DNA from: Flavobacteriaceae bacterium
GTDB taxonomy: Bacteria; Bacteroidota; Bacteroidia; Flavobacteriales_C; GCA-002722245
Length of the DNA stretch: 64,000 nucleotides
NCBI GenBank assembly: GCA_964230605.1
Contig: CAXRIN010000046.1
Coordinates: forward strand, 11,793-75,792
Direction of reading: 5' to 3'
Shown here piece after piece: positions 36,926 to 61,865 of the stretch. Position 1 is the first letter of the stretch, and each line of letters starts with the position of its first letter. The notes under the pieces are model-generated. The model saw nothing but the letters and a program-made list of their open reading frames with translations. It made no database searches and was not told the DNA's origin. Both the position numbers and the translations under genes were made by a program.

Positions 36926-37789
36926 ATGTCGGAATCCAAGTGGACTGAAATTATTTTCCCAAAGAGGTCTTTAGGAGCACTAAATTTAAAAGAGTTATTT
37001 AAGTATAAGGATCTTATTTTACTTTTTGTAAAGAGGGATTTTGTAGCTTATTATAAACAAACAATTTTAGGTCCATTTTGGTATTTACTTCAACCAATAA
37101 TTCAAACAGTTATATATGCTTTAACTTTTGGAGCTGTATTTAATGTTAAAGAAGGTACGAGTATACCTTCGTTTTTATTTTTCTTGTCGGGAAATGTTAT
37201 GTGGTGGTATTTTGCTCAAAGTTTAGTGAAAACATCGAATACTTTTACTGAAAATGCTCATATATTCGGTAAGGTTTATTTTCCTAGGTTAACAGTTCCT
37301 GTGTCTGTTTTGATATCTAATATGATAGGGTTTGGAATCCAGTTTTCATTATTTATTGTAGCGTATCTGTTCTTTATTTTTGGAAAAGGAATGGATTTTT
37401 ATCCAAGTATTAAAGGGTTGTTATTTTTTCCCATAATTATTCTTAATATGGCAATATTAGGACTTGGATTAGGTTTGATAATATCTTCGTTAACAACAAA
37501 GTATAAGGATTTTAAACATTTTGTAGGATTTGGAGTACAGTTATTGATGTTTGCGTCTCCTGTAATATTTCCTTTACAAGTAGCTGAAAGTAAGTTTGGA
37601 GCGTTTGCTAAATTGATCCAATATAATCCGATGACACCAATTATTAGAAGTTTCAGAGCTTCGTTTTTTCCTGATTTTGTATTTAATTACGAGGATTTAC
37701 TGTACAGTGGAATATGTGCGGTAGTATTTTTCTTATTTGGCGCCTTTTTGTTCAATAAGACGGAGCAAAACTTTATGGATACGGTATAA
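36926..37789 (+). CDS. ABC-2 type polysaccharide export permease (Wzm/KpsM/NodJ-like)
   Basis: 287 aa. 6 TM segments with the ABC-2 arrangement. Immediately followed by the Wzt ATPase. Confidence 0.8.
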   Translation: MSESKWTEIIFPKRSLGALNLKELFKYKDLILLFVKRDFVAYYKQTILGPFWYLLQPIIQTVIYALTFGAVFNVKEGTSIPSFLFFLSGNVMWWYFAQSLVKTSNTFTENAHIFGKVYFPRLTVPVSVLISNMIGFGIQFSLFIVAYLFFIFGKGMDFYPSIKGLLFFPIIILNMAILGLGLGLIISSLTTKYKDFKHFVGFGVQLLMFASPVIFPLQVAESKFGAFAKLIQYNPMTPIIRSFRASFFPDFVFNYEDLLYSGICAVVFFLFGAFLFNKTEQNFMDTV

Positions 37790-37790
37790 T

Positions 37791-39083
37791 ATGAGTAATG
37801 ATATAGCAATAAAAGTAGAAGGATTATACAAACAATACCGTCTTGGAGTTATTGGAGCGGATACTCTAAAAGATGATTTAAAACTTTTATGGGGAAAAAT
37901 TCGAGGAAAGTCAATATCTGATTTGTATAATATTGATTCCAACGATAGAATGGTTGGTAATTCCGAATATGTATGGGCTCTTCAGGATATAAATTTTGAA
38001 GTAAAAAAAGGAGAGATTTTAGGGATTATAGGGAAGAATGGAGCCGGGAAATCAACACTGTTAAAGGTTTTGTCAAAAGTTACTGGTCCAACTAAAGGAT
38101 CAATCAAGGTAAATGGAAGGATAGCATCATTATTAGAAGTCGGTACCGGATTTCATCCAGAATTAACGGGGCGTGAAAATATTTTTCTTAATGGCGCCAT
38201 TTTGGGAATGAAAAGAGCTGAAATCAAATTGAAATTGGATGAAATTGTTGATTTCAGTGGAATAGGAAAATATTTAGATACACCAGTAAAAAGATACTCC
38301 TCTGGTATGAAGGTGAGATTAGGGTTTGCTGTTGCAGCGCATCTTGAACCTGAGATTTTAATTGTTGATGAGGTACTTGCTGTTGGTGATGCTGAATTTC
38401 AGAAGCGTTGTATCGGTAAAATGAATGACGTTTCAAAAAATCAGGGGAGAACCGTATTGTTTGTCAGTCATAATATGAGTTCTGTTATGGAACTATGTGA
38501 TAGAGGTTTGTTGATGAAGAACGGAACAGTAGCTCAAACAGGAGCCATTTCTGATATAATTCCAGCGTATTTGAATTCTTTTAAAAGTGAATTTAAAACG
38601 AAAGATTTATATCAGGTTCAAACTCGAACAGGAAATGGGAATATTGTGTTTTATCAATATGATTTATTGGATATTGATGGGAACTCAATTGATTTTGCTC
38701 TTAGTGGACAAAAATTAAGGTTTCATTTACGGCTGAAGGTTAATAAACAGGAAGATTATAAAAGGATTCATTTATCAATGAAATTTGTTGATGAAAATGA
38801 TGTGTCTCTTTTCCATGTATCAAATTCTGTTTCAAATGGTAAAGAATTTGAAGTAGTTCAAGGGAAGGAATTTCTAGATGTATTTTGTGAAATTGAAAAA
38901 CTACCGCTTCAGCCAGGAATTTATAGTTTTCATTTATTTTGTAGTGATTTGCAGAAGGTCTTTGACGAAATCAATTTTGCAGGTGAATTGAAAGTTGAGG
39001 GGGGGAATTTCTTTTCAAGCGGGAAACTTCCTGCTAAGGATTTAGGAACCTTTTTAGTTGAAAATAATTGGATAATTAAATGA
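37791..39083 (+). CDS. ABC transporter ATP-binding protein (Wzt/KpsT/NodI-like) with C-terminal carbohydrate-binding (Wzt-C-like) beta-sandwich extension
   Basis: Start MSNDIAIKVEGLY (internal Met of the tracked ORF; 1 nt after the wzm stop). Walker A GKNGAGKST, signature YSSGMKVRL, Walker B ILIVDE. ~190 aa beyond the NBD, as in Wzt proteins that recognise a terminal glycan modification. Confidence 0.85.
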   Translation: MSNDIAIKVEGLYKQYRLGVIGADTLKDDLKLLWGKIRGKSISDLYNIDSNDRMVGNSEYVWALQDINFEVKKGEILGIIGKNGAGKSTLLKVLSKVTGPTKGSIKVNGRIASLLEVGTGFHPELTGRENIFLNGAILGMKRAEIKLKLDEIVDFSGIGKYLDTPVKRYSSGMKVRLGFAVAAHLEPEILIVDEVLAVGDAEFQKRCIGKMNDVSKNQGRTVLFVSHNMSSVMELCDRGLLMKNGTVAQTGAISDIIPAYLNSFKSEFKTKDLYQVQTRTGNGNIVFYQYDLLDIDGNSIDFALSGQKLRFHLRLKVNKQEDYKRIHLSMKFVDENDVSLFHVSNSVSNGKEFEVVQGKEFLDVFCEIEKLPLQPGIYSFHLFCSDLQKVFDEINFAGELKVEGGNFFSSGKLPAKDLGTFLVENNWIIK

Positions 39084-42140: not shown

Positions 42141-43052
42141 ATGAAGTCATTATTTATTATAGGATGCCCGAGGAGTGGAACAACATACCTTTTAAGGTTG
42201 TTGGCTTCAAATCAAGAGTTTGCCTGGATAACAAATGAATTAAATAACAATCCTAAAGAATACAATCTATCTAGTCGATTAAATAAATATTCGGGGTCTT
42301 TTTGGAGAAAAAAGCGCTATTTAAACCATGGACAAGGCTCTGGAAAATATCCTTTTTCAGTTGAGCCATGGAAATTTTGGAATACTCATTTTGAGTATTT
42401 TCAATGGAATAAAGGTTTTTCTGATGTACCTGTAAATGCTTTGCCAGAGCATAATTCCCCGAAAGTTATACAAGATGTTCGTAACGGTGTTGAAGAGATA
42501 TTAAAGCACTCAGGAAGACATGCCTTTCTAAGTAAATATACTGATTTCCCAAGGGTTAAATTACTTTTGGAAGCCTTTCCAGAAGCAAAGTTTATCCATC
42601 TGGTAAGAGACGGTAGAGCTGTAGCGAATTCATATTATAAAAAAATTAAATCAGGTGAATTTAATACTTCAAAAGAAGAGTCTAATTGGGTTTCTGCTTG
42701 GCCGAAAGATTGGCAAGAAGAGTATCAAAGCATTGATAATAAGCTTTTAGCTTTTACTTTATATCAATGGAAGTTTTTTGTGGATCAGATTATAGAGGAG
42801 TTAAAAGAAGTAGAGCAGGAAAGAGTATTAGAAGTAAGATATTCAGATTTAGTAAGTGGTACGAGAAAAACTGTGGAGAGGATCATGGACTTCATAGATT
42901 TACCAATTGATAAGTCGATGGATTTCTTTATAGATCATCTTCCTGGGCATGATATGAATTATAAATGGAAAGAGAAATTGTCTGAGGATGAAAAATCTCT
43001 TTATAACTTTATACTTAGAGAAGAAAGATTTATACAATTTTTGGACAATTAA
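42141..43052 (+). CDS. sulfotransferase-family protein (PAPS-dependent, P-loop 5'-PSB + 3'-PB motifs)
   Basis: 5'-PSB-like GCPRSGTTYL. 3'-PB-like HLVRDGRAVANS. 303 aa, cytoplasmic. Confidence 0.6.
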   Translation: MKSLFIIGCPRSGTTYLLRLLASNQEFAWITNELNNNPKEYNLSSRLNKYSGSFWRKKRYLNHGQGSGKYPFSVEPWKFWNTHFEYFQWNKGFSDVPVNALPEHNSPKVIQDVRNGVEEILKHSGRHAFLSKYTDFPRVKLLLEAFPEAKFIHLVRDGRAVANSYYKKIKSGEFNTSKEESNWVSAWPKDWQEEYQSIDNKLLAFTLYQWKFFVDQIIEELKEVEQERVLEVRYSDLVSGTRKTVERIMDFIDLPIDKSMDFFIDHLPGHDMNYKWKEKLSEDEKSLYNFILREERFIQFLDN

Positions 43053-45070: not shown

Positions 45071-46105
45071 TCAAATAAACAAAAAATCAGCGACTTGATT
45101 GTTGTTCAATTTATGAGGAATATTAGTGCCGGACAACAACTGGTCTTTGTTTTTTAGGGTTTGTTTGATTTTTTGGCAGATTTCAAAAGGGTTATCATAT
45201 GCAGAAACCATGAACTCGCTACTGATAAATTCACTTAATCCAGAGTTATTAGAGTAAAGACAGGGCACTCCAAGGCTTAAGCTTTCCAATACAACCTGTC
45301 CCCAACTTTCAGAATAAGAGCAATACAGGTTGATGTCCATACTACCCAGTAAGGCTAAAAACGCGTTTCTACTCAAACTCTCGTGTACCACAATGCTTTC
45401 ATTTGGTAAAGCGTACTCAAATTCATTTGGTGCTAAAACGTGTACTATACTATTTTCAACCATAGAAGCGGCAACTACTTGAGTATGTCTGTTCTTATTG
45501 TAGGAGGAGTTTCCAAAAACGCCAATATGAATTTTCCCGTCGTTTCGTTTTTGAATTTTTAAATCCTTTGGTAAGGAGAGTTGAGGCAAAACCCTAAAAA
45601 TCTTAGTCTTTGTTTGTTGTTTAAACCAATGATCCAACCCGTCCTTTACAACACCTATTTTCGATATTATACCTGAATTTGCCAATACAATTATGTTTTT
45701 CATTTGTAATTGTCTGTTTATATTTCCTGTCAACTCTGCTAAACCTCCATGGTAGATGACCCCAATTTTGATGTTGTAGTAAACCTTTAATCGGTTGATC
45801 CAGTTGAGACTGTATTGGGGTAAACCAGAAAAAATAATTGATTGGACCTGATTTTTTTTAATTGTATCGAAAAATAAATGAACTTGGTTTTCATCAAGTA
45901 AAGTTCTACTGAATTCCTGAGGCAGTATTACGGATTGTTGTGGAAACATTCCTAATGTGGCGTTTTTAATGCCCAACCAATTTTCTCCAGTGTTCTGTGG
46001 CACGAAAACTAGGGTTGGATACTTTTTCGATAGTGCTCTAACGTTATCCAAAAATTGATCAAACTCAACTTTTGAGAATGTTGATTTTCGCCATCTTTTT
46101 AACAT
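45071..46105 (-). CDS. glycosyltransferase family 1/4-like (GT-B), only minus-strand gene inside the plus-strand locus
   Basis: C-terminal ESWGQVVLESLSLGVPCLYSN motif (E..G..xLE...G.P). 344 aa. Confidence 0.55.
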   Translation of the reverse strand: MLKRWRKSTFSKVEFDQFLDNVRALSKKYPTLVFVPQNTGENWLGIKNATLGMFPQQSVILPQEFSRTLLDENQVHLFFDTIKKNQVQSIIFSGLPQYSLNWINRLKVYYNIKIGVIYHGGLAELTGNINRQLQMKNIIVLANSGIISKIGVVKDGLDHWFKQQTKTKIFRVLPQLSLPKDLKIQKRNDGKIHIGVFGNSSYNKNRHTQVVAASMVENSIVHVLAPNEFEYALPNESIVVHESLSRNAFLALLGSMDINLYCSYSESWGQVVLESLSLGVPCLYSNNSGLSEFISSEFMVSAYDNPFEICQKIKQTLKNKDQLLSGTNIPHKLNNNQVADFLFI

Positions 46106-46147: not shown

Positions 46148-47095
46148 ATGGAGGTATATGTTGAATTCCCGGAAACTACATTAACCAATGCTATTTTGGA
46201 AGAATGCTACGCTGAAATAGATTTCAAAAGAATAGAAAAAAAATTGGGAATTATTTCAAGAAGAGTAGTGAAGGATGAAACGGCCCTAGATTTAGCTTTG
46301 GAAGCTTGTAGGGAGATAGATAGAGCCGATCTTGGTGAAATAGATTTTGTAATTTATTGTACTCAGTCGCCAGAATACTTTTTGCCATCAACGGCTTGTA
46401 TAATACAAACAAAATTAGGTTTGAAGGATAGTTGTGGTGCTTTCGATTATAATTTAGGATGTTCAGGTTATATATATGGTTTAGCGATGGCTAAGTCGTT
46501 TATTATAAGCGGAGTTGCTTCTAAGGTACTTTTGGTTACTGCAGAGACATATACTAAATATATTCATCCTTCAGATTGGTCAAATCGAGCTATTTTTGGA
46601 GATGCTGCAACTGCATCTGTAATAGGGAAAGATGATATTGATAAAATAGGGGAATTTGATTTAGGAACAGATGGAAAAGGTGCAGAGAACCTAATTATTA
46701 AAGGGGGAGCAGGAAAAGCCAATTTTCATCAGAATTTTGAAAGAGAAAATTGCTTTTATATGAATGGTTCTGAAGTATTTAAATTTACTTTGGAGAATGT
46801 ACCTATAACAGTGAATGAATGTTTAAAGAAAAATAACAAATCAATAGATGATATTGATTTTGTGATTTTTCATCAGGCAAATGCTTACATGCTGAAGAAT
46901 TTAAGAAAGAAAATAAGTGTCCCAGAGGACAAATTTTATGTAAATGTTGAAACAGTAGGAAATACTGTATCTAACACCATTCCTGTAGCTTTGAAGGATT
47001 CACAGGATAGAGGTTTGATAAAGTCTGGCGATTGTGTACTTTTGTGTGGATTTGGAGTAGGTTACTCTTGGGGGACAACAATAATTACAATATAA
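46148..47095 (+). CDS. 3-oxoacyl-ACP synthase III (FabH-like KAS III), dedicated copy
   Basis: Active-site Cys in YNLGCSGYIYGL, His in VIFHQAN, Asn in VGNTVSNT. 315 aa. Confidence 0.8.
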   Translation: MEVYVEFPETTLTNAILEECYAEIDFKRIEKKLGIISRRVVKDETALDLALEACREIDRADLGEIDFVIYCTQSPEYFLPSTACIIQTKLGLKDSCGAFDYNLGCSGYIYGLAMAKSFIISGVASKVLLVTAETYTKYIHPSDWSNRAIFGDAATASVIGKDDIDKIGEFDLGTDGKGAENLIIKGGAGKANFHQNFERENCFYMNGSEVFKFTLENVPITVNECLKKNNKSIDDIDFVIFHQANAYMLKNLRKKISVPEDKFYVNVETVGNTVSNTIPVALKDSQDRGLIKSGDCVLLCGFGVGYSWGTTIITI

Positions 47096-47098
47096 CAC

Positions 47099-47335
47099 AT
47101 GAATAAAGAATCATTTTTCAAGGAGATAGAAGAACTATTAGAGTTAGAAGGTGAATTAGAAACAAACGCTGATACTAGTATTGAAGATATACTAGAAATT
47201 GATTCTTTAGCACATATTACACTTATTTCCTTTGTTAAGGATGAAATAGGAGTGGAGCTAAAAGCTGAAGACTTTTCTGAATTTGAAACTCTTGCTGATT
47301 TGGTAAGCAAAATAGGTGAGGATAAATTCAATTAA
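47099..47335 (+). CDS. acyl carrier protein
   Basis: 78 aa, acidic. Phosphopantetheine-attachment motif EIDSLAHI. Confidence 0.8.
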   Translation: MNKESFFKEIEELLELEGELETNADTSIEDILEIDSLAHITLISFVKDEIGVELKAEDFSEFETLADLVSKIGEDKFN

Positions 47336-48090
47336 TGCTCAGTTTTACAAATCATAAAATTTTAATAACCGGAGCTTCATCGGGCTTAGGTAAAGCTGTG
47401 GCTGAATTATTAAATTCTTTAGGTGTTTATACCGTTTTATGCGGTAGAAATGAGGAGAAATTAAATAATATAAAAAACTTACTAAGTGCCCCTGAAAAAG
47501 CTAATGTTTTAGTGGTTGATTTTAATGATAACGTTTCGATTAAATCATTCTTAAAAGTTAGTGTTGAAAATTCTGGTAAGTTCACAGGGTTTGTTCATTG
47601 TGCTGGAGTTGATATTACTAAGCCATATAAATTACTTAAGGAGACCGATTTTAACTTATTATATAAATTAAATATTACAACCCCGTTTCAGTTATCTAAA
47701 GAGTTAGTGAATAAATCTTTTTTTAGTGAAAATGGAGGGAGCTTAATTTGGATGAGTTCGGTGATGGGGACTTTGGGACAGAAAGGGAAAATAGCATACA
47801 CAACAAATAAAGCAGCAGTTGAAGGATTAATTAAATCTTATGCTTTAGAGTTAGCTCCCAGAAAAATAAGAGTTAATAGTGTTGCTCCTGGAATTGTAGA
47901 AACACCATTAACAAAAGATTTATTTTCTAAGTTATCTCTTGAGAGAGTTCAGGAAATTAAAAATATGCACCCTTTAGGGTTTGGAGCACCAGGTGATGTA
48001 GCGAATTTAGTTGCTTTTCTTTTAAGTGATCAATCCAAATGGATCACAGGAACTACTCATTTTATCGATGGAGGATATCATATTCAATAA
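47335..48090 (+). CDS. SDR-family oxidoreductase (FabG-like 3-oxoacyl-ACP reductase)
   Basis: TGASSGLGKAVA cofactor motif. Catalytic YTTNK (YxxxK). TAATG overlaps with both neighbours. Confidence 0.8.
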   Translation: MLSFTNHKILITGASSGLGKAVAELLNSLGVYTVLCGRNEEKLNNIKNLLSAPEKANVLVVDFNDNVSIKSFLKVSVENSGKFTGFVHCAGVDITKPYKLLKETDFNLLYKLNITTPFQLSKELVNKSFFSENGGSLIWMSSVMGTLGQKGKIAYTTNKAAVEGLIKSYALELAPRKIRVNSVAPGIVETPLTKDLFSKLSLERVQEIKNMHPLGFGAPGDVANLVAFLLSDQSKWITGTTHFIDGGYHIQ

Positions 48091-49034
48091 TGGAGGGGTT
48101 TGATATTGTAAAACTTTCGGATGAACATTTTAAGTTGCTATTGCCTCTTTACAGCAAAGCGTTTGGTCAATCTATGGATGAACATGAACTGAGAACGAAG
48201 TTTGATACCTTAAAGATTTGTGGAGAAAAAAATGTAGGTTTTATAGCACTGAATGAAAAAGGTGAAGCTGCAGCTTTTTATGGTGTATTTCCTTGTTACG
48301 CTATTAAAGGTGATAATCAGGTTTTAATAGCACAGTCTGGTGATACTATGGTTGACGCAAAATACAGACGAAAGAAATTGTTTGTAAAGTTGGCGGAAAC
48401 AACTTTTGAGTATTGTAGAGCTAAAAATATTAAGGCTGTTTTCGGATTTCCGAATATATATTCATTTCCAAGTTTTGTTAAAAAGTTAAAGTGGACTCAT
48501 ATTCATAACATTGTTAGTTATCAGTTAAGAGTTAAGTGTTTACCTTTTATTCGTATTAGAAAACTTTTTAAGTTGAAAGAAGACTTTTTTCTTAACTATC
48601 AATTAAGGTATTTAAGGAGGCAGAGTAAAAAGGTTAAAGAATACCATTCCATAAATCAAAATATTTCGAATTATACTATTAATAAAAACAAACAATTTAT
48701 TGAGTATAAGGCCTACTTTGAGAAATACTTTCTGAATCTTTCCGGTGTAAATGTTTGGGTAAAACCTAATGCTATGTTTTTGCTGGTTGGGGATGTTGAA
48801 GATTGTGACGAAGTTACTTTTGTTGGCGTACTTGATGAGTTAAAAAAGATAGCTTTCAGATTAGGAATTCCGCATATTAGGATCCAAATGTCACCTGAGA
48901 CAAAGTTGGAGACTATGGCTAAGAAGTATTTATATAAAATGGATAATGAATACCCTGCAGGTGGAATCTCCTTTGATAGTAACTTTAATATTCATGATTT
49001 ACGTTTTGTTTTAGCTGATTACGATACTTTCTAA
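48090..49034 (+). CDS. hypothetical protein, possibly GNAT/FemAB-like acyltransferase
   Basis: Start MEGFDIVKL (TAATG-coupled to the SDR stop). ~315 aa, consistent in size with Acetyltransf_6/FemAB-like folds. No unambiguous motif seen by eye. Assignment rests on context (ACP module upstream, NodB-type deacetylase downstream). Confidence 0.25.
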   Translation: MEGFDIVKLSDEHFKLLLPLYSKAFGQSMDEHELRTKFDTLKICGEKNVGFIALNEKGEAAAFYGVFPCYAIKGDNQVLIAQSGDTMVDAKYRRKKLFVKLAETTFEYCRAKNIKAVFGFPNIYSFPSFVKKLKWTHIHNIVSYQLRVKCLPFIRIRKLFKLKEDFFLNYQLRYLRRQSKKVKEYHSINQNISNYTINKNKQFIEYKAYFEKYFLNLSGVNVWVKPNAMFLLVGDVEDCDEVTFVGVLDELKKIAFRLGIPHIRIQMSPETKLETMAKKYLYKMDNEYPAGGISFDSNFNIHDLRFVLADYDTF

Positions 49035-50053
49035 TGTTACATAAAATCTTAATATCCCTTTTTTATCGTTTCCCTTTTCTAACTAAAAAAATTTTAAGAG
49101 GGAAAGGTTTTGTGTTTATGTTGCACCGAGTGCTACCTGCTGAAGAAAGGGGTTACGAATGGAATAAAAGTTTGGCGATTTCACCTGAAGCTTTAGAAAA
49201 ATGGGTGAGCTTTTTCAAACAAAAAGGGTTTGATGTTGTCTCTATGGATGAAGTTTACAGGCGAGTGAGGAGTAAGAAATCCAAGCCTTTTGTGGCATTT
49301 ACAATGGATGATGGGTACAAGGATAATTTGACTTATGGTTTGCCAATCCTTGAGAAGTTGAATATTCCTTGCACGATTTATGTTGCCAATTGCTTTCCCA
49401 ATAATCAAGCGATTTATTGGTGGTATTTTTTAGAAGAGTACATCAATGAGAATTCTAAAATAGACTTGACCCCACTTGGGATTAGTTATTCTTCCCACAT
49501 TAGTGATGAGAACAAAAAAAGCGTTTACGATGAGGTGAGAGAGTTATTGAGAAAGTCCACCTACGCGGTACATAAAAAATTTGCCCTTGAAATTTGTGGT
49601 ATCCAAGACCTCAATGCTTTGAACAATCGATTCAATTTGACTTGGGAGGAAGTACAGCAACTTTCGGAACACTCATTGATTACCATTGGTGGACATACTA
49701 AAAGTCATGTTAGTTTGGCAAATCAAACCAAAGAAAGCGCTAATACCGAAATCCAATTGGGAACAGAAGAATTGGAAAAAAAACTCAGTCAATCTATTCG
49801 CCACTTTGCTTATCCTTATGGTTCTTTAGATGATGTTAGTAATTCACTTTTCGACCCATTGGCGCAATCAGGCTACCAAACAGCTGTTTTAAACCATCCT
49901 GGAAGTATATTTTATGATGGCTCAAATCATCTTTTTCAAATTCCAAGAATGGGTTTATCGGATGAAACCTCTAGGGAAAGATTGAGTGAATTGATGGAAG
50001 GAAAACTTCATCTTAATTTCAATGGGGTTAAGAAGAGAATTATAAGTGGTTAA
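49034..50053 (+). CDS. polysaccharide deacetylase (NodB-homology, CE4) family protein
   Basis: Motif 1 FTMDDGYKDN (TFDDG-like), His motif GGHTKSH and further CE4-like spacing. 339 aa. Confidence 0.75.
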   Translation: MLHKILISLFYRFPFLTKKILRGKGFVFMLHRVLPAEERGYEWNKSLAISPEALEKWVSFFKQKGFDVVSMDEVYRRVRSKKSKPFVAFTMDDGYKDNLTYGLPILEKLNIPCTIYVANCFPNNQAIYWWYFLEEYINENSKIDLTPLGISYSSHISDENKKSVYDEVRELLRKSTYAVHKKFALEICGIQDLNALNNRFNLTWEEVQQLSEHSLITIGGHTKSHVSLANQTKESANTEIQLGTEELEKKLSQSIRHFAYPYGSLDDVSNSLFDPLAQSGYQTAVLNHPGSIFYDGSNHLFQIPRMGLSDETSRERLSELMEGKLHLNFNGVKKRIISG

Positions 50054-50110: not shown

Positions 50111-51070
50111 ATGGCGGAAATAGAATTATCTATTATAATAGTAAATTATAAAACACCAGAGTTAACCTCAAAATGCATTCAATCCATTTTTGAAAATACT
50201 AGAGATCTAACTTTTGAAATTATTCTAGTAGATAACAATTCACAGGATGGGTCAAAAGATTTCATTCTCAGTGATTGTCCCAATATCTCATGGGTTCAAA
50301 TGGATGATAATGCGGGGACTTCAAGAGGTTACAATGCAGGCGTTAAAAGTGCTAAAGGGAAGTATGTTTTAATTCTTAATTCCGATACAGAATTAAGGGA
50401 TAATGCCATAAAGAATTCATTGGATTTTCATAAAAAGAAAGAGTCTGAATGTAAAGTAGGTTTAACCAGTTGTCAAATAAAAGGTTTTGATGGGGTCATT
50501 CAATATAATTCTAATCCTAACTTCCCTTCTGTTAAAAAATATCTAGCTAAGCATCCAGTATTGTATAAGTTTGGTGCAAGGGCGCCAAAGAATTTATCAA
50601 ATGAAGAGAAATTAACCTTGCACAAATCCAATCATGAGACATCTTGGATTGGTATTGCTTTTGGTATTATAAATAAGGAAATATTTGATAAAGAGGGATT
50701 GTATTTTGATGAAGATATTTTTATGTACTCTGATGAAGTGGAGTGGTGCTACCGTTTAAAGCAATTAGGGTATAGACATTTCTTTACAGCTGATTACACA
50801 ATTTACCATGTTAACTCTGGAAGTTCTGTAACCAATGAGTGGAGGTATGGTCAAATATTCCTCTCTGAATTAATTTACTTCTATAAAGTTAAAGGTAAGT
50901 TTTACTATAACCTGATTCTTCGGTCATTGAAATATTTTTTTAAGAAGGACAAAACAACAGCTAATCAAATCGAAATAGATGTTGTAAAACGTTATGGGAA
51001 CAGAATTAAAGAAGAATATCAACCAAAAGTGAGTTCAGGTAAGACATACTTAAAATATGAGCTAAAATGA
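50111..51070 (+). CDS. glycosyltransferase family 2
   Basis: LSIIIVNYKTPELTSKCIQSI, LVDNNSQDGS and NSDTE (DxD-like) motifs. Confidence 0.75.
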   Translation: MAEIELSIIIVNYKTPELTSKCIQSIFENTRDLTFEIILVDNNSQDGSKDFILSDCPNISWVQMDDNAGTSRGYNAGVKSAKGKYVLILNSDTELRDNAIKNSLDFHKKKESECKVGLTSCQIKGFDGVIQYNSNPNFPSVKKYLAKHPVLYKFGARAPKNLSNEEKLTLHKSNHETSWIGIAFGIINKEIFDKEGLYFDEDIFMYSDEVEWCYRLKQLGYRHFFTADYTIYHVNSGSSVTNEWRYGQIFLSELIYFYKVKGKFYYNLILRSLKYFFKKDKTTANQIEIDVVKRYGNRIKEEYQPKVSSGKTYLKYELK

Positions 51071-52203: not shown

Positions 52204-53724
52204 ATGCTATTTAACTCTTTAAATTTTCTTGTGTTTTTCCCGGTGGTATTTTTGTTATACTGCTTGGTGAAACAAAAATATCGTTCGATTTTACTACTTA
52301 TCGCGAGTTATGGTTTTTACATGGCTTGGAATCCTGTTTTTATCTTTTTAATAGTATTCTCTACAATTGTTGATTATTTCACAGGAATTAAAATTTCAAG
52401 AGCTGAGACTAACAATAAAAAGAGAGTTTTTTTGGCGGTCAGTTTGATCTCTAATTTAGGTTTATTATTCTATTTTAAGTATTGGAATTTCTTTTTAGAT
52501 AATGTATACGAAATTTTAAATTTTTTTGAGATTTCCCACACAAAAGATCATTGGGAAATTATGCTTCCAGTTGGAATTTCATTTTATACGTTTCAGACCC
52601 TATCATATACAATTGATATTTACAAGGGGAATCTTAATCCTCAAAAACACTTTGGGAAATTTGCTTTATTTGTTTCCTTTTTTCCACAATTGGTGGCTGG
52701 TCCTATTGAGAGGGCAACAAACTTAATTCCTCAACTAGAAAAGCTAACAATCATAAAAAAGGCTGATGTTGAGTTAGCAGTTTTCCAAATTGTATGGGGA
52801 TTCTTTTTAAAAATAGTTGTGGCTGATAACATAGGTATGTATGTTGATATTGCTTATGATAATTATGAGCATCTGTTTGGAGTGAAAATGTTATTACCTG
52901 TAATTCTATTTTCTTTTCAGATTTTCGCGGATTTTGCAGGTTATTCTTGTATCGCAATTGGAATTGCAATGTTTTTTGGGGTGAGATTAATGGATAATTT
53001 TAAATCTCCATATTTTTCCCGTTCAATTTCTGAGTTTTGGTCCAGGTGGCATATATCTTTAAGTACTTGGTTTAAAGATTACTTATATATTCCATTGGGA
53101 GGGAATAAAAGAGGTTCTTATCGTACTTTGCTAAATCTATTTGTTGTATTTATTGTTAGTGGAGTATGGCACGGGAGCAATTGGACTTTTGTAATATGGG
53201 GAGCAATTCATGGTGTTGTAATATGTCTCGAAAGGGTTTTGCCATTGAAAATAGATCCAAAAATTGATATTTTTCATAAGTTTTATAAATCTATTAAGAC
53301 CATTTGGGTATTTGCTCTCGTAACCCTTTCATGGTTATTTTTTAGGGCTGACTCTGTCGAACAAGCTTTAGCAATATTCATTAGTATTAAGAAAAATTTT
53401 GTTTTGACAATAAAGGACTTCGCCTGGATTGTTAAATCTAGTTTTACAACTGAAGATTATAGGGTTTTAAGTGTTTTCGAATGGCTGGTTAAAGATTTTG
53501 AAAAAGGTGAAATAACCAATTCTAATTTTGTCTTATTCAGTATTACAATTGGCGTTTTTTTAACTAACATTATGGAATTTATTAATAGAAACAAAGGGGC
53601 CGTTTATTTTGTAGAGAAAGTGGGGCGAATTAAAAAGGTTGCTTGGGTTTCTGTATTGATAATGGCTATTTTTTATTTAGGTCAGTATTCAGGGAATGAT
53701 CAATTTATTTATTTTCAATTCTGA
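52204..53724 (+). CDS. MBOAT-family membrane-bound O-acyltransferase (AlgI/DltB/PatA-like)
   Basis: 506 aa polytopic. Conserved MBOAT region FWSRWHISLSTWFKDYLYIPLGGNKRG with the catalytic His. Confidence 0.85.
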   Translation: MLFNSLNFLVFFPVVFLLYCLVKQKYRSILLLIASYGFYMAWNPVFIFLIVFSTIVDYFTGIKISRAETNNKKRVFLAVSLISNLGLLFYFKYWNFFLDNVYEILNFFEISHTKDHWEIMLPVGISFYTFQTLSYTIDIYKGNLNPQKHFGKFALFVSFFPQLVAGPIERATNLIPQLEKLTIIKKADVELAVFQIVWGFFLKIVVADNIGMYVDIAYDNYEHLFGVKMLLPVILFSFQIFADFAGYSCIAIGIAMFFGVRLMDNFKSPYFSRSISEFWSRWHISLSTWFKDYLYIPLGGNKRGSYRTLLNLFVVFIVSGVWHGSNWTFVIWGAIHGVVICLERVLPLKIDPKIDIFHKFYKSIKTIWVFALVTLSWLFFRADSVEQALAIFISIKKNFVLTIKDFAWIVKSSFTTEDYRVLSVFEWLVKDFEKGEITNSNFVLFSITIGVFLTNIMEFINRNKGAVYFVEKVGRIKKVAWVSVLIMAIFYLGQYSGNDQFIYFQF

Positions 53725-54662
53725 TGAAAAAGATAATTGTCACATACCTCATACTTCCAATTGTTTCTCTATTGATTTTCTCTTTGGTGCTCACCAGGTT
53801 TGATTCTCCTTCTAATGACTTTCTAAAAGGGATTGAGTTAAAGGAGAAAATTGCAGAAAAAGCTATTGGGCCTAAGATTATTTTAGCGGGTGGGTCCAAC
53901 TTAGCTTTTGGAATTAAATCATCAATAATTAAAGAAACTACTAATAAAGAGGTTGTAAATCTTGGAATAATGGCTGGATTGGGGGTTTCTTTTATGTCCA
54001 ATCAATTTATGGAATATGTTTCCCCAGGAGATTTAGTTGTTTTTGTCCCTGAATACACATTGTACTTTGCACCAAAGATTGAAGGTTTAAATCCTGTTAT
54101 TTTAAGTGCGGTTTATTCCTACCCTCCATCTGCCAGACATGTTGATGATTTGAATTTCATTAAACATGAACACTTTAAATTCCAATCTAGGTTTCAAAGA
54201 TTGATACAGAGTTTTTCAACTGTTCCATCTAGTAAAATTTATAGATATGAGTCCTTCGATGAAAACGGGGAAGTTAAAATAAATCATAAATCAAAAGTTT
54301 CTTTAGAGGATTTTAAAAATTATAATTTCCCAATTGATTCAAATAAAATTAATAATGAAAATTTTGAAGACTTTATTAATTACATGAAAAAGGTTAAGTC
54401 TAGGGTTGAAAATAAGGGGGCATCTTTAGTACTTAGTTATCCTCCAGGAAAAAAGGATTTTAATTTTCAAAAATCTGTTTTATTACTTAAGGAAGTTTTA
54501 AACAATAATGGATTTGAGTATTTAGGTAAACCAAGTGAGTTTGCCTTTGGTCATGACATGTTTTTTGATGATATTCCCCATTTAACTCAAAAGGGTGCAG
54601 AATTGAGAACTATAAAACTAGCCAATATTTTAAAAAAATATTTCAATGGAAAAGTTGATTAG
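53724..54662 (+). CDS. membrane-anchored extracytoplasmic partner of the MBOAT enzyme (AlgJ/DltD/PatB-like, SGNH-type?)
   Basis: Start overlaps the MBOAT stop by 1 nt. Single N-terminal TM. LAGGSNLAFG resembles an SGNH block-I region. Inference mainly from the conserved MBOAT+partner gene pairing. Confidence 0.35.
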   Translation: MKKIIVTYLILPIVSLLIFSLVLTRFDSPSNDFLKGIELKEKIAEKAIGPKIILAGGSNLAFGIKSSIIKETTNKEVVNLGIMAGLGVSFMSNQFMEYVSPGDLVVFVPEYTLYFAPKIEGLNPVILSAVYSYPPSARHVDDLNFIKHEHFKFQSRFQRLIQSFSTVPSSKIYRYESFDENGEVKINHKSKVSLEDFKNYNFPIDSNKINNENFEDFINYMKKVKSRVENKGASLVLSYPPGKKDFNFQKSVLLLKEVLNNNGFEYLGKPSEFAFGHDMFFDDIPHLTQKGAELRTIKLANILKKYFNGKVD

Positions 54663-55764: not shown

Positions 55765-56769
55765 CTAATTTAAAGCTAATTTTCGATTCATTTTTCTCCT
55801 TGCTTCCAAGGTTTTGTATTTAGCTGATTTTCTTTTGTTTAAAATCTTCTTGTCGTTTCCATAAAAAACATCTGCTGGTGTTAAATTTCTAATGGATTCG
55901 TGGTATCGTTCATTGTTGTAATAATTCACAAACTCTTCCATTTTGGCTTCTAACTGACCGGGAGAAAAGTAATTATCGAGCTTTACTACATTTTTCATCG
56001 ACCTGTGATAACGTTCTATTTTACCCTGTGTTTGCGGATGTAATGGTCGACCTCTAACATGTTTTATTTCCATTTCGGATAAATACTTTTCAAGGTCTTT
56101 AGAGATGTAACAAGAACCGTTATCTGACAGTAATTTTGGACGATTTTCAGTAAGTCCAGTTTTAGCTAAAGCTTCATCGATTGTGTCCTGAACATCGCCA
56201 GCCTTCATAGTTGAGCATAACTTCCAGTTCACGATATACCTGCTGTAATCATCTAAAATAGTTGACAAGTAATACCAGCCCCAACCAAAGATTTTGAAGT
56301 AGGTAAAATCGGTTTGCCACATTTGGTTTGGACCTGAAGTTTTATCATAAAACTGATCCGAAGCACTCATCACCATAAAGAAAGGTGTTGTGATTAAACC
56401 ATTCTCTTTCAGGATTCTGTAAACGCTTGATTCACTGATGTAATAATTATACTTATCAGTAATATTCTAAGCCAGTTCCCGAGGAGATAACTCAGGGTTT
56501 TCTAGTGATATTTCAACTACTTTATCTCGATCAGCTTGAGCTATTTTATTCCAAGCTGGTTTCTTGTTGGATTTCTTTCGAGCAAGCCCTTCATAACCAT
56601 TTTCGGAGTATGCTTTGTACCAGTTGTAGAACGTGGTTTTATTTACCTTCAGCTGCTTTAAAGTTCTGCTTACTCCTAAGTCTGAACCCTCTACCAATCG
56701 AATGATTTCCATTTTTTGTGATTGAGAATAATGCATATACTTCTTTCTTTTTAAGCATCCCCATTCCAC
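55765..56769 (-). pseudogene. IS3-family transposase OrfB (DDE integrase core) interrupted by an in-frame TAG at 56467..56469
   Basis: The ORFs 56467..56769 and 55765..56376 are in the same frame. Translation reads ...PELSPRELA-[TAG]-NITDKYNYYISESSVYRILKENGLITTPFFMVMSASDQ... DDE residues are present downstream (WQTDFTY, LSDNGSCY, NERYHESI). Confidence 0.7.
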
Positions 56770-57269: not shown

Positions 57270-58880
57270 TCACAGTTTATTAGTAGTTTTTTGTTTCGAT
57301 AATAAGAAGCCTAATTTAAAGGGAATCCTTTTTATTACTAGACTTAATAATAATGTACTTATAAAAAAGAAACTATAATATACAGATAGGTTGTATCTGT
57401 ATTCTGCTGTTCTAAGAATAATAATATATAATCCAATGTGGTATAAAGTAGAGATAGTGAGGAAAAAGAACACCGAATTTTTCTTTTTAAATAAACTTCT
57501 AATGAGCTCAAAAAGGTAATAAACCGAACCTAATAATCCCAATATGATAATTATTTGATAAGTAAGAAAAGATATAATTTTAATACCAATTTGTGGTAAT
57601 GTTGCATTCTCTAAAGAGAATGGAAGCTGGTAGGTTCCACTGTTAAATAGCCAAGCTTTAAAAGTTTTAATTCTACCGATAATTTGATAATAAAACCAGT
57701 GATGTTGAGTTAAGTTTTTATAAAACTTATCAGTTATTTTTAAGGCTACTTCTAAGCTTTTTTTTCTTTCGGATAAATCAATGTTTTTATTCCTTGCTAT
57801 CTTAGAATTTCTTTGACATTCAACAAGTAATTCTGGCGTTAACCCTTTTTCATTGTCGTAAATTATTTCAGGAAATAAAGATGATTGATTTTGTGGCTTA
57901 AAGCCTAATTCATGTTGGTAATCATCATCCATAAACCAATACATTTGCCCTTCTGGGTCCCACTTGTTTGATCTTCCTCCAAATCCTTTAATGAGTTTTT
58001 TTTGTTTTTCGAAAAGGGGAACAGTTGTAAAATTTGCTTCATGAATTACTCCAACTTTACCTGTTTTATGCTCACTGGAACCTATTTGTTGAATTAAAAT
58101 TATTTTGCCATCTGATGCAAAGTAATTTCTAGTAACCCATATGCTTTCAAAAACTGCACTGGTAAGTAAAAAAAATAAAAGCGCTTTAATCGCTGTTTTT
58201 CTTTCTTTGATAAATATCCATCCTGCAAAAAGAAATAGCAGAGGTAAAAAAACTATTCGGGCAAAAATGGCAAGAGCAAGAAATAGTCCTCCGAAAAAGA
58301 TACTCTTAATATGTTTGTGTTCTATATATTCATAAATGTGAACTAATGTTAGAGAGAAAAATGAGAAAGAAAGGCTTTCTGCGAGTTCAGGATGATTATT
58401 CCATATCGAGATATAGTTATCTGCTAAAAAGAGTAGTATTCCTATATAAAAAAAGCTAGGTCCAAATTTTTTGCTGAGGGTTTTCAATAATTTAAAAATG
58501 GAATAAGACATAAAAATGGATAATCCAATCATGTAAAAATTTAGCGCCCATTGATAGCTAAAAAACAGTCTGAAAAATAAATATCCAATTCCAACAATAG
58601 GAACTCTTGGGGCAACCATTTTTCCTTTAGCAAAGTACCAATCTCCGTTAGTATAAAAATTTTCAGCACATGTAATATAGCCTTCATCTCCCCATCCCTC
58701 TGATGGTAATTCAAAGAGTATTCCTTCTGAGAATTTTTCCGGGTTGTGAGAATAAGAAAAATATAAAAGTAATGAGACTTTTATTATAATAACTAGTGGA
58801 AGAATCCACCATTGTATTTTTAGATTTTTAAACATTTTTTGTACGGTTTCGCTGGAGGAAATACTTTTCGACTGTTTCAA
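57270..58880 (-). CDS. large polytopic membrane protein, possible GT-C-type (ArnT/PMT-like) glycosyltransferase
   Basis: 536 aa. N-terminal TM followed by a loop containing EGWGDEGY (a DE-type motif occupies the equivalent first loop in GT-C enzymes). ~9 TM helices, a ~250-aa hydrophilic domain, and 3 C-terminal TM helices. An alternative start at MFKNLKIQ (58835) would reduce the overlap with the upstream AT3 gene. Confidence 0.25.
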   Translation of the reverse strand: MKQSKSISSSETVQKMFKNLKIQWWILPLVIIIKVSLLLYFSYSHNPEKFSEGILFELPSEGWGDEGYITCAENFYTNGDWYFAKGKMVAPRVPIVGIGYLFFRLFFSYQWALNFYMIGLSIFMSYSIFKLLKTLSKKFGPSFFYIGILLFLADNYISIWNNHPELAESLSFSFFSLTLVHIYEYIEHKHIKSIFFGGLFLALAIFARIVFLPLLFLFAGWIFIKERKTAIKALLFFLLTSAVFESIWVTRNYFASDGKIILIQQIGSSEHKTGKVGVIHEANFTTVPLFEKQKKLIKGFGGRSNKWDPEGQMYWFMDDDYQHELGFKPQNQSSLFPEIIYDNEKGLTPELLVECQRNSKIARNKNIDLSERKKSLEVALKITDKFYKNLTQHHWFYYQIIGRIKTFKAWLFNSGTYQLPFSLENATLPQIGIKIISFLTYQIIIILGLLGSVYYLFELIRSLFKKKNSVFFFLTISTLYHIGLYIIILRTAEYRYNLSVYYSFFFISTLLLSLVIKRIPFKLGFLLSKQKTTNKL

Positions 58881-61062: not shown

Positions 61063-61197
61063 ATTGAATGATATTAATGGCGAGTGAATTTAATTCCTTC
61101 AAGTTCAACACTAAATTAAAAACTAAAGTAAGGTTAATTTTTTACTATACATTACTAGTTTTAGATTATTTAGTGAAGTTTTTAGGCGTGAATTTAA

Positions 61198-61539: not shown

Positions 61540-61865
61540 TATTTTTTTGCTAAAAATAAAACTCCAATACCTATAAGTAAACCTCCTGTAACTTTAGTGA
61601 AAGTTAAGGTTTCATCAAAAAGTATACTGGACAATATAAGAATTAAAACAAAATTTAAACTCAGAAAAGGGTATGCAATTGAAAGGGATACTTTTTTTAA
61701 TACGTTTGCCCATATTAAAGTCCTTATACCAAAAAGGCCAATAGCGGATATTGTGAATATATTAAAAAGGTTTCCTTCTTTTACTTCAAATGAGCCAAAT
61801 TTAGATATTACTTGAGTTAAGGCCATTAAGCCAATGGTGAAAAGTAATAATTTAAACCCTTTCAT
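61539..61865 (-). CDS. small 4-TM DMT/SMR-like protein (ArnF-like partner subunit?)
   Basis: 108 aa with four hydrophobic helices. Tandem with 61198..61539. Confidence 0.5.
   Translation of the reverse strand: MKGFKLLLFTIGLMALTQVISKFGSFEVKEGNLFNIFTISAIGLFGIRTLIWANVLKKVSLSIAYPFLSLNFVLILILSSILFDETLTFTKVTGGLLIGIGVLFLAKK

What the first reader, a model, noticed from the sequence alone, without database searches (positions are those of the whole stretch)
46148..50053. Dedicated KAS III – ACP – ketoreductase – acyltransferase-like – NodB-deacetylase cassette embedded in an ABC-exported glycan locus (Nod-factor-like lipidation logic)
Five genes are translationally coupled: TAATG overlaps occur at 47335, 48090 and 49034, with a 3-nt gap at 47096-47098. 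They encode a private fatty-acyl synthesis system (FabH-type condensing enzyme with an intact Cys-His-Asn triad, an ACP with the DSL motif, a FabG-type SDR), followed by an unassigned ~315-aa protein and a CE4 polysaccharide deacetylase. The enzyme logic matches rhizobial Nod-factor assembly: N-deacetylate an amino sugar (NodB), then N-acylate it from a dedicated acyl-ACP (NodA with NodF/NodE). The same locus also holds a sulfotransferase (NodH analogue) and an ABC-2 exporter (NodI/NodJ analogues). This predicts an N-acylated (lipo-)glycan or glycolipid with a custom acyl chain. To my knowledge that has not been described for Bacteroidota surface polysaccharides.
Basis: partly seen in the sequence, partly recalled or inferred. 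Interest (0 to 1): 0.78.

Follow-up and report, generated by a model that had tools for sequence, protein, structure and literature searches.

The report
Sugar N-acyl editing cassette with private ACP
Five coupled genes in a Bacteroidota surface-polysaccharide locus most likely strip the acetyl group from an amino sugar and replace it with a short custom 3-hydroxyacyl group built on a private carrier protein; this chemistry is already known, but here it is done by an enzyme pair not described before.

The parts
46148..47095 (+). KAS III (FabH-like) condensing enzyme, 315 aa, with Cys105/His242/Asn272
   Evidence: Pfam ACP_syn_III and ACP_syn_III_C. NF006829 scores 263 bits against a cut-off of 249. 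The best PDB match is 3gwa at 273 bits, with the triad aligned; residue positions are. It is 54-56% identical to the KAS III of four other glycan N-acyl cassettes.
47099..47335 (+). Dedicated acyl carrier protein, 78 aa, DSL motif with Ser36 (codon 47204-47206), pI 4.05
   Evidence: PP-binding scores 30.1 bits against 20.8. It is far below the housekeeping ACP equivalog cut-offs, for example 28 bits against 65. Motif and pI are. tblastn identity to the ACPs of L001, L002 and L022 is 72-77%.
47335..48090 (+). SDR ketoreductase (FabG-like, not the FabG equivalog), 251 aa
   Evidence: adh_short_C2 scores 167.9 bits. TIGR01830 (FabG) scores 160.7 bits against a cut-off of 297.75. TGASSGLG at residue 12, SSV at 141 and YTTNK at 155.
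48090..49034 (+). Tandem-GNAT N-acyltransferase, 314 aa, pI 9.24. The donor-binding loop at residues 92-98 reads YRRKKLF (nt 48363-48383), where the family consensus is HxGKGLF. The C-terminus is an invariant D-T-F-COOH.
49034..50053 (+). Cytoplasmic CE4 de-N-acetylase, 339 aa, with invariant H31, D92, D93, H221, H225, Y260-P261 and R305
50111..51070 (+). GT2 glycosyltransferase, the conserved third member of the GNAT-CE4-GT2 triad and the probable installer of the HexNAc that gets edited (inferred)
   Evidence: Glycos_transf_2 scores 68 bits. A homologue follows the CE4 in every locus of the trio clade and lies within 3.5 kb of the GNAT in 28 of 80 loci.
45071..46105 (-). GT4 glycosyltransferase, divergent from the cassette with a 42-bp intergenic gap; a conserved neighbour
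   Evidence: Glycos_transf_1. The same divergent GT4 lies directly upstream of KAS III in L001, L083, L084 and L086.
36926..39083 (+). Wzm (ABC-2 permease) and Wzt (ATPase with a Wzt_C carbohydrate-binding domain): the exporter that makes this an ABC transporter-dependent, cytoplasmically completed glycan
   Evidence: ABC2_membrane, ABC_tran and Wzt_C. Wzm/Wzt homologues lie near the GNAT-CE4 pair in many related loci.
52204..54662 (+). MBOAT plus a TM-anchored 312-aa partner: context, and the candidate alternative user of the ACP (rival B)
   Evidence: MBOAT scores 91 bits. The partner's N-terminal segment scores KD19 2.72. The pair lies near the cassette in only 3 of 10 trio loci.

Best explanation
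The cassette is an 'N-acyl editing' module for one amino-sugar residue of an ABC transporter-exported, O-antigen-like polysaccharide. All steps are proposed to occur in the cytoplasm.

1. The dedicated ACP is loaded with malonate by the housekeeping FabD.
2. KAS III condenses a short acyl-CoA primer, most simply acetyl-CoA, with malonyl-ACP. The SDR reduces the 3-oxo group. With no dehydratase, enoyl reductase or elongating KAS, synthesis stops at a 3-hydroxyacyl-ACP of primer + 2 carbons, most likely 3-hydroxybutanoyl-ACP.
3. The CE4 enzyme removes the N-acetyl group from a HexNAc, probably GlcNAc, on the growing lipid-linked glycan. That residue is probably installed by the adjacent GT2.
4. 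The tandem-GNAT enzyme transfers the acyl group from the ACP to the freed amine.
5. The finished polymer is exported by Wzm/Wzt.

Shown here: the gene identities, the folds, the catalytic residues, the conserved linkage of the genes, and the loss of the CoA-type loop in the GNAT. Inferred: the donor, the acceptor, the order of steps and the chain length.
For: Gene identity and coupling.

Folds:
- The GNAT is a high-confidence tandem-GNAT N-acyltransferase.
- The CE4 has invariant metal and catalytic residues, and its nearest structures are GlcNAc de-N-acetylases: PplD, IcaB and PgaB.
- All five proteins are soluble, with no signal peptide. This matches cytoplasmic assembly in a Wzm/Wzt pathway.

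Linkage:
- A CE4 gene lies within 1.5 kb of the GNAT in 63 of 80 loci, and in 46 of 55 loci with full flanks.
- KAS III-ACP-KR sits beside GNAT and CE4 in the window, L001, L002, L022, L082, L083, L084, L086 and the deeply diverged L087. These loci show three arrangements: collinear, divergent and reordered.

Donor switch:
- All nine trio-linked GNATs lack both glycines of the Q/RxxGxG pyrophosphate loop. The second Gly is kept in 138 of 144 wider family representatives.
- Trio-linked GNATs carry a mean net charge of +12.4 against +6.4 for the others (p = 1e-4, not corrected for phylogeny). The ACP has pI 4.05.
- Acyl-ACP-dependent N-acyltransferases related to GNATs are established: OlsB, N-acyl amino acid synthases and AHL synthases (PMC11631085).

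Module function:
- The same KAS III subfamily (54-56% identity) sits with an ACP next to PglD-like or hexapeptide N-acyltransferases and DegT aminotransferases in other glycan loci.
- One of those loci also has a FabD-like malonyl transferase, which supports real condensation chemistry.

Chain length:
- In F. psychrophilum, two KAS + ACP + KR correspond to a chemically proven N-3,5-dihydroxyhexanoyl group (C6).
- By the same count, one KAS + KR gives a 3-hydroxy C4 chain.

Acceptor:
- No sugar aminotransferase is encoded in the + strand locus 31379-55689. Deacetylation is therefore the only locus-encoded source of a free amine.
Against: - There is no biochemical or glycan-structure evidence for this organism or for any member of the GNAT family.
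- About 90% of GNAT-CE4 pairs work without the KAS III-ACP-KR module, so the GNAT does not intrinsically need a private ACP.
- Two GNATs nested in the trio clade (L081, L085) have a Gly-less loop but no trio within 7-10 kb.
- The loop/trio association amounts to only one or two evolutionary events (tree), and the charge test is not corrected for phylogeny.
- The nearest structural relatives of the CE4 are all extracytoplasmic enzymes.
- The KAS III primer, and therefore the chain length, cannot be read from the sequence.
- An MBOAT system downstream could also use an acyl-ACP.
Confidence: 0.6

Rival explanations
1. Rival A: Nod-factor-like or lipid-A-like lipidation. KAS III starts from a long or unusual acyl-CoA, or housekeeping FAS enzymes elongate on the private ACP. 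A long 3-hydroxy fatty acyl chain is then N-linked to a glucosamine, giving a lipoglycan or glycolipid anchor.
Against: The cassette has no KAS I/II, dehydratase or enoyl reductase, in this locus or in any of the related ones. The homologous module in F. psychrophilum yields a C6 decoration, not a lipid. The locus has Wzm/Wzt with a Wzt_C domain and many glycosyltransferases, typical of an undecaprenyl-linked polymer that needs no extra lipid. There is no NodA or NodB sequence membership.
Confidence: 0.15
2. Rival B: the ACP module feeds a different transferase. The 3-hydroxyacyl-ACP would be handed to the downstream MBOAT and its membrane-anchored partner (as in DltB/DltC/DltD), or to the Acyl_transf_3 protein, for O-acylation outside the cytoplasm. 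The GNAT would then simply use an acyl-CoA, as the rest of its family presumably does.
For: An MBOAT, a TM-anchored partner and an AT3 protein lie 2-5 kb downstream. MBOAT pairs also lie near the cassette in L082 and L083. Most GNAT family members have no private ACP.
Against: MBOAT is absent near the trio in 7 of 10 trio loci, and it is present in trio-less loci L003 and L033. The trio is always directly adjacent to the GNAT and/or CE4. The GNAT loop and charge change together with trio presence.
Confidence: 0.12
3. Rival C: the CE4 and GNAT act on different groups. The GNAT N-acylates an amine that does not come from the CE4, for example an amino sugar made elsewhere or an amino-acid substituent added by the AsnB-like or ATP-grasp enzymes, in the manner of mycothiol MshB/MshC/MshD. 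The CE4 independently creates a free GlcN or removes an O-acetyl group.
Against: GNAT and CE4 are immediate, often overlapping neighbours across a family that diverges to about 29% identity. The DegT gene lies beyond an IS fragment, on the other strand. AsnB is neither adjacent to the pair nor universal.
Confidence: 0.1
4. Rival D: a housekeeping fab paralogue set with no role in glycan structure.
For: The family names alone (FabH, ACP, FabG) point this way.
Against: The KR and ACP score far below the FabG and AcpP equivalog cut-offs. No fabD, fabF or fabZ accompanies them. The module is found only inside glycan loci, next to N-acyltransferases.
Confidence: 0.02

Closest known systems
Flavobacterium psychrophilum O-polysaccharide wfpC-wfpG module (PMC6519341)
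   Same: It is a dedicated KAS III-type synthase, ACP and ketoreductase inside a Bacteroidota O-antigen locus, proposed to build a short hydroxyacyl group that is amide-linked to an amino sugar. A locus with the same architecture (L090) carries a KAS III 54% identical to the window's.
   Different: That module has two KAS genes (C6 3,5-dihydroxyhexanoyl), a PglD-like left-handed beta-helix acyltransferase, and an acceptor amine made on a nucleotide sugar by an aminotransferase. It sits in a Wzx/Wzy-type locus. The window has one KAS, a tandem-GNAT transferase, a CE4 deacetylase as the amine source, and a Wzm/Wzt exporter.
Rhizobial Nod-factor core: NodA/NodB/NodC with NodF/NodE (own knowledge)
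   Same: The logic is the same: a GT2 makes a GlcNAc glycan, a CE4 removes one N-acetyl group, and an acyltransferase adds an acyl chain from a dedicated ACP that is fed by a dedicated KAS. The gene order (acyltransferase, deacetylase, GT2) also matches.
   Different: There is no sequence membership. No NodA Pfam hit appears even at E<=10, and no NodB equivalog hit. NodE is a KAS I/II-type enzyme making long polyunsaturated chains, whereas here a KAS III plus KR predicts a short 3-hydroxyacyl chain. The Nod product is a secreted lipo-oligosaccharide signal, not a polymer.
Lipid A LpxC/LpxD steps (own knowledge)
   Same: GlcNAc is N-deacetylated and then N-acylated with an (R)-3-hydroxyacyl-ACP, in the cytoplasm.
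   Different: LpxC is not a CE4 enzyme, and LpxD is a left-handed beta-helix enzyme that uses housekeeping long-chain acyl-ACP. The window's enzymes are unrelated in fold and use a private ACP.
Eis-like, MAB_4324 and N-myristoyltransferase tandem GNATs (PDB 2hv2, 7q3a, 3sxn, 8fbt)
   Different: Sequence identity is 7-13%, and the family profile finds no PDB sequence at E<=1. The protein is 314 aa against about 400 for Eis, so it has no room for Eis's third domain. The Q/RxxGxG loop has lost its glycines in the window's clade.
PplD / IcaB / PgaB GlcNAc de-N-acetylases (PDB 6dq3, 4wcj, 3vus)
   Different: Those enzymes act outside the cytoplasm. The window's CE4 has no signal peptide or TM segment and carries an insertion of about 95 residues (roughly residues 120-215) between motifs 1 and 2.
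FdhC-type sugar N-acyltransferases using 3-hydroxybutanoyl-CoA (own knowledge, not checked here)
   Same: A GNAT-superfamily enzyme that installs a 3-hydroxybutanoyl amide on an O-antigen amino sugar.
   Different: It is a single-domain GNAT acting on a dTDP-sugar with a CoA donor from general metabolism. No private ACP and no deacetylase are involved.

Membership tests
KAS III (FabH) family | Thiolase-fold ACP_syn_III domains and a score above the curated subfamily cut-off | tested here: met
   PF08545 and PF08541. NF006829 scores 263 bits against 249. It scores below the TIGR00747 fabH cut-off (237 against 292), so it is a paralogue subfamily rather than the housekeeping FabH.
KAS III (FabH) family | Cys-His-Asn catalytic triad | tested here: met
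   C105, H242 and N272 align with 3gwa and other FabH structures.
KAS III (FabH) family | Decarboxylative condensation of an acyl-CoA with malonyl-ACP | not testable with these tools
   This needs an enzyme assay. A FabD-like gene beside a homologous KAS III-ACP pair in L089 is indirect support.
Acyl carrier protein | PP-binding domain with the DSL serine | tested here: met
   PF00550 scores 30.1 bits against 20.8. DSL lies at residues 35-37.
Housekeeping AcpP / FabG equivalogs | Score above the NCBIfam equivalog cut-off | tested here: not met
   The best ACP model scores 28 bits against a cut-off of 65. TIGR01830 (FabG) scores 160.7 bits against 297.75.
GNAT superfamily (tandem-GNAT architecture) | GNAT fold, here duplicated | tested here: met
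GNAT superfamily (tandem-GNAT architecture) | Q/R-x-x-G-x-G/A pyrophosphate-binding loop between beta4 and alpha3 | tested here: not met
   The window reads Y-R-R-K-K-L-F where the family has H-x-G-K-G-L-F. Both glycines are replaced in all trio-linked members. The fold is kept, but the CoA-type loop is not.
NodA (PF02474) | Sequence match to the NodA family | tested here: not met
   Only PF13527 and PF00583 are reported at E<=10. HMMER's filters may hide very weak hits.
NodA (PF02474) | Transfer of an acyl group from acyl-ACP to a de-N-acetylated GlcN terminus | not testable with these tools
   This is inferred only from gene linkage and the loop and charge changes.
CE4 polysaccharide deacetylase (NodB homology domain) | Polysacc_deac_1 domain, Asp-His-His metal triad and catalytic Asp | tested here: met
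NodB equivalog | Match to a NodB-specific model | tested here: not met
   No NodB model is among the NCBIfam hits at E<=0.01. The best hits are partial matches to PgaB, HfsH and IcaB.
F. psychrophilum wfp-type N-acyl module | Dedicated KAS + ACP + KR inside an O-polysaccharide locus | tested here: met
F. psychrophilum wfp-type N-acyl module | PglD-like (hexapeptide) acyltransferase and an aminotransferase-generated acceptor | tested here: not met
   The transferase is a GNAT, and there is no DegT or hexapeptide gene in 31379-55689.
ABC transporter-dependent (Wzm/Wzt) glycan pathway | ABC-2 permease plus an ATPase, optionally with a Wzt_C domain | tested here: met
   PF01061, PF00005 and PF14524.

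The most novel reading that the evidence does not exclude
An uncharacterised, widespread tandem-GNAT/CE4 pair (660 clusters at 50% identity) is a general 'N-acyl editing' device for Bacteroidota surface glycans: remove the acetyl group, install another acyl group. In one clade it recruited a portable KAS III-ACP-KR supply unit and rebuilt the GNAT's CoA-pyrophosphate loop (GKG to R-K-K) into an ACP-docking surface. That would be a natural, traceable switch of a GNAT from an acyl-CoA donor to an acyl-ACP donor.
Probability: 0.4. Interest if true: 0.62.

Novelty: new variant of a known kind. Interest (0 to 1): 0.5.

Why it matters
N-acyl substituents on amino sugars are dominant epitopes of O-antigens and capsules, yet the genes that install non-acetyl groups are often unassigned. 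This work assigns a probable function to a large unnamed tandem-GNAT family and its CE4 partner. It shows that a KAS III-ACP unit is a portable acyl-supply module shared between at least three transferase types. It also offers a sequence signature, loss of the GxG loop together with gain of positive charge, that could flag acyl-ACP-dependent GNATs in genome annotation. It does not reveal a new kind of chemistry.

Tried and rejected
- **Source organism not recovered.** The exact protein is in the collection on a 110,672-bp NCBI contig, but neither the contig look-up nor the cluster look-up returned a record. The best genome match is a Flavobacteriales MAG at 54% identity.
- **No PDB sequence relative.** A profile search of the GNAT family against PDB sequences found nothing at E<=1. 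Only fold comparison worked.
- **Promoter and terminator scan uninformative.** It gave 39 promoter-like sites against 48.5 expected, and 7 terminator-like sites against 5.5 expected. The sigma-70 consensus does not suit Bacteroidota anyway.
- **Literature searches.** Searches for a KAS/ACP plus deacetylase glycan module found only the F. psychrophilum paper. The Tenacibaculum O-antigen paper mentions none of these genes.
- **L088's 334-aa protein.** It showed no detectable relationship to the GNAT family (hhalign probability 0.2%). A weak Acetyltransf_1 hit (E 0.027) and an RSKGTG motif suggest a different GNAT.
- **Loop as a predictor of the trio.** I considered treating the Gly-less loop as a perfect predictor. 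I rejected this because L081 and L085 have the altered loop without the trio, and because the tree shows only one or two independent events.
- **Apparent N-terminal truncation of the KAS III.** It aligns from residue 7 to residue 12 of E. coli FabH, which is 317 aa long. It is therefore full-length.

Full report
**1.

The window (about 32% G+C) carries five co-directional ORFs at 46148-47095, 47099-47335, 47335-48090, 48090-49034 and 49034-50053.

Profile searches give the following assignments.

| ORF | Assignment | Key evidence |
|---|---|---|
| 46148-47095 | KAS III | NF006829, 263 bits against a cut-off of 249 |
| 47099-47335 | ACP | PP-binding domain with a DSL motif |
| 47335-48090 | Classical SDR | Resembles FabG |
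| 48090-49034 | N-terminal GNAT domain | Acetyltransf_9, 38.9 bits against 25 |
| 49034-50053 | CE4 deacetylase | Polysacc_deac_1, 62 bits against 23.1 |

Catalytic residues are in place:
- KAS III: C105, H242, N272.
- ACP: S36.
- SDR: S141/142 and Y155-x3-K159.
- CE4: D92, D93, H221 and H225, plus invariant H31 and R305.

The SDR and ACP score far below the cut-offs for the housekeeping FabG and AcpP equivalogs. This is therefore a specialised paralogue set.

**2. Context in the window**

The + strand from 31379 to 55689 is a glycan locus. It is bounded upstream by menF/menD/menA and downstream by an IS fragment. Its genes, in order, are:
- a GT2;
- an unusual tailoring block (PhyH dioxygenase, a weak 2OG-oxygenase-like ORF, a GH130-like protein, an amidohydrolase and an ATP-grasp protein);
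- Wzm, and Wzt with a Wzt_C domain;
- GT4, an AsnB-like amidotransferase, a sulfotransferase, GT4 and GT2;
- a divergent GT4;
- the cassette;
- GT2, an epimerase, an MBOAT with a membrane-anchored partner, and an Acyl_transf_3 protein.

This is an ABC transporter-dependent pathway, in which the polymer is completed in the cytoplasm. All five cassette proteins are predicted to be soluble, with no signal peptide, which is consistent with that pathway. The locus encodes no sugar aminotransferase.

**3. The fourth protein is a tandem-GNAT acyltransferase from a large unnamed family**

- A homologue search found about 100 clusters, all 305-320 aa long and almost all unnamed.
- A full profile search of 1.84 billion representatives found 660 clusters at E<=1e-30 and 2,379 at E<=1e-10.
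- An AlphaFold model built on 51 sequences is confident (pLDDT 94.4, pTM 0.90).
- The family profile matches no PDB sequence at E<=1.
- Nearly all members end in D-[T/I/V]-[F/Y/W]-COOH. This recalls the catalytic C-terminal carboxylate of NMT and Eis, which I know from memory and did not test.

**4. What travels with what**

I fetched 80 of the 256 loci in species-representative genomes that encode a relative of the GNAT. They are nearly all Bacteroidota, with a few Ignavibacteria and one Acidobacteria MAG. I then mapped the window's locus proteins onto them.
- A CE4 gene lies within 1.5 kb of the GNAT in 63 of 80 loci, and in 46 of the 55 loci with full flanks.
- In the nearer half of the family the order is GNAT-CE4-GT2-GT4, often followed by an AsnB-like gene and usually near Wzm/Wzt.
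- KAS III-ACP-KR appears in only three of the 80 loci (L001, L002, L022).

The private fatty-acyl unit is therefore an accessory. The conserved core is the GNAT-CE4 pair.

**5. A sequence signature that tracks the accessory unit**

GNATs bind the pyrophosphate of CoA with a Q/R-x-x-G-x-G/A loop between strand 4 and helix 3. In this family that loop reads H-x-G-K-G-L-F. In the window it reads Y-R-R-K-K-L-F (residues 92-98), between the predicted strand 76-88 and helix 97-111.

I predicted that metagenomic homologues with a Gly-less loop would sit beside a KAS III-ACP-KR unit, and tested six of them.

| Homologue | Loop | KAS III-ACP-KR nearby? |
|---|---|---|
| P0047 | Gly-less | yes |
| P0014 | Gly-less | yes |
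| P0009 | Gly-less | yes |
| P0015 | Gly-less | yes |
| P0021 | HQRKNLF | no, within 7-10 kb |
| P0030 | HQRKNLF | no, within 7-10 kb |

None of the roughly 75 loci with at least the second Gly intact has the unit. In the wider family the second Gly is kept in 138 of 144 representatives. Trio-linked GNATs also carry about twice the net positive charge (+12.4 against +6.4), the two trio-less nested members are the least basic (+3 and +5), and the ACP has pI 4.05.

There is an important caveat. A neighbour-joining tree puts all these members in one clade, plus one distant lineage. The association therefore rests on one or two evolutionary events and is suggestive rather than statistically strong.

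**6. Approaching from the KAS III side**

The KAS III belongs to a very large subfamily. Four sister loci at 54-56% identity show what the unit is used for.

| Locus | Arrangement |
|---|---|
| L087 | KAS III-ACP-KR-CE4, then a 307-aa protein with no Pfam annotation in the pre-computed gene listing. It is a full-length distant member of the same tandem-GNAT family (hhalign probability 99.95%, E 1.4e-37) and also lacks the GKG loop. |
| L088 | KAS III-ACP-KR, a different GNAT-like protein, then a CE4 |
| L089 | FdtA, a FabD-like transacylase, KAS III, ACP, a hexapeptide acyltransferase and a DegT aminotransferase |
| L090 | A PglD-like acyltransferase, KAS III, ACP, a second KAS, KR and DegT |

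The L090 arrangement is the architecture that Cisar et al. proposed for the N-3,5-dihydroxyhexanoyl group of the F. psychrophilum O-antigen, whose structure is chemically established (PMC6519341).

The KAS III-ACP unit is thus a portable acyl-supply module for N-acylating glycan amino sugars. It is combined either with a beta-helix transferase and an aminotransferase, or with a GNAT-type transferase and a CE4 deacetylase.

**7. The deacetylase**

**8. Most likely mechanism**

1. KAS III and the KR build a short 3-hydroxyacyl chain on the private ACP.
2. The CE4 exposes the amine of a HexNAc on the cytoplasmic lipid-linked glycan. The conserved adjacent GT2 is the likely installer of that residue.
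3. The tandem GNAT moves the acyl group from the ACP to that amine.
4. Wzm/Wzt exports the finished polymer.

Chain length is inferred by counting enzymes. One KAS and one KR, with no dehydratase, enoyl reductase or elongating KAS, give primer + 2 carbons. In the F. psychrophilum system two KAS give C6. 3-Hydroxybutanoyl is therefore the parsimonious guess.

GNAT-related N-acyltransferases that use (3-hydroxy)acyl-ACP are well established: OlsB, N-acyl amino acid synthases and AHL synthases (PMC11631085).

Gene identity, fold, catalytic residues and linkage are shown here. The donor, acceptor, order of steps and chain length are inferred.

**9. Rival explanations**

Not excluded, but the enzyme inventory and the homologous C6 system argue against it.
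- **The ACP feeding the downstream MBOAT.** Unlikely, because the MBOAT accompanies the unit in only 3 of 10 loci and also occurs in loci without the unit.
- **CE4 and GNAT acting on unrelated groups.** Possible, but hard to reconcile with their near-universal adjacency.
- **A housekeeping role.** Effectively excluded.

**10. Comparison with known systems, and novelty**

The module works like NodB/NodA with NodF/NodE, and like LpxC/LpxD, but it belongs to none of those families. There is no NodA or NodB hit, and the folds differ from LpxC and LpxD.

It shares the acyl-supply unit with the F. psychrophilum wfp-type module but differs in three ways: the transferase is a tandem GNAT rather than PglD-like, the amine source is a deacetylase rather than an aminotransferase, and the export route is Wzm/Wzt.

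Within the searchable literature I found no description of the GNAT-CE4 route or of this GNAT family. I rate it a new variant of a known kind. The expected product, an N-hydroxyacyl amino sugar in an O-antigen, is ordinary chemistry that is already documented in Flavobacteria. The enzymology, and the apparent switch from a CoA donor to an ACP donor in a GNAT, are the interesting part.

Interest: 0.5.

Noticed in passing
window 37737-39083 and 42141-43052; L083 3089-4021: Wzt carries a Wzt_C carbohydrate-binding domain, which in other systems recognises a capped chain end. A sulfotransferase lies in the same locus, and another lies next to the cassette in L083. Sulfation could therefore be the chain-terminating cap.
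   Followed up: no
window 32333-36801: An unusual tailoring block sits directly upstream of wzm: a PhyH-type dioxygenase, a weak 2OG-Fe(II) oxygenase-like ORF (33136-33909), a GH130-like protein, an amidohydrolase_2 and an ATP-grasp enzyme. Its function in the glycan is unknown.
   Followed up: partly
window 52204-54662; also L003, L033, L082, L083: An MBOAT is paired with a 312-aa protein that has an N-terminal membrane anchor and no Pfam family. This looks like an AlgI/AlgJ- or DltB/DltD-type O-acylation system, and it recurs near GNAT-CE4 pairs both with and without the ACP unit.
   Followed up: partly
window 55765-56376 (-); L084 2539-2772: A truncated rve-family transposase ends the + strand locus. 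Another rve fragment sits inside the related L084 locus, which hints that these loci are shuffled by IS elements.
   Followed up: no
window 10257-18253 (-) and 58828-62739 (-): The window holds two further glycan gene sets. The first has a WecA-like initiating transferase, RmlC, a Wzc-like kinase, Wza, a GT4 and a second AsnB paralogue. The second, beyond the IS fragment, has an Acyl_transf_3 protein, a DegT aminotransferase and a second sulfotransferase.
   Followed up: partly
L081 7001-7942 and L085 10001-10942: Two GNATs nested inside the trio-linked clade have a Gly-less loop (HQRKNLF) but no KAS III-ACP-KR within 7-10 kb. They also have the lowest net charge (+3 and +5). This may be secondary loss of the unit, and their acyl donor is unknown.
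   Followed up: partly
L003-L080 (for example L004 8878-13052): About 90% of tandem-GNAT/CE4 pairs have no private ACP unit and keep at least part of the CoA-type loop. A deacetylase beside an apparent acyl-CoA transferase implies that some non-acetyl CoA donor is used, or that the two enzymes act at different sites. In L004 the pair is interleaved with two Acyl_transf_3 genes.
   Followed up: partly
window 49034-50053, residues about 120-215: The CE4 has an insertion of about 95 residues, mostly helical, between catalytic motifs 1 and 2. W129 within it is invariant. The insertion is modelled with high confidence, is absent from PplD, IcaB and PgaB, and may be a substrate-selecting lid.
   Followed up: no
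window 48039-48090: The longest possible ORF for the GNAT starts at 48039 and would overlap the KR gene by 52 nt. All homologues start at the Met at 48090, so automatic callers may mis-annotate this start.
   Followed up: yes
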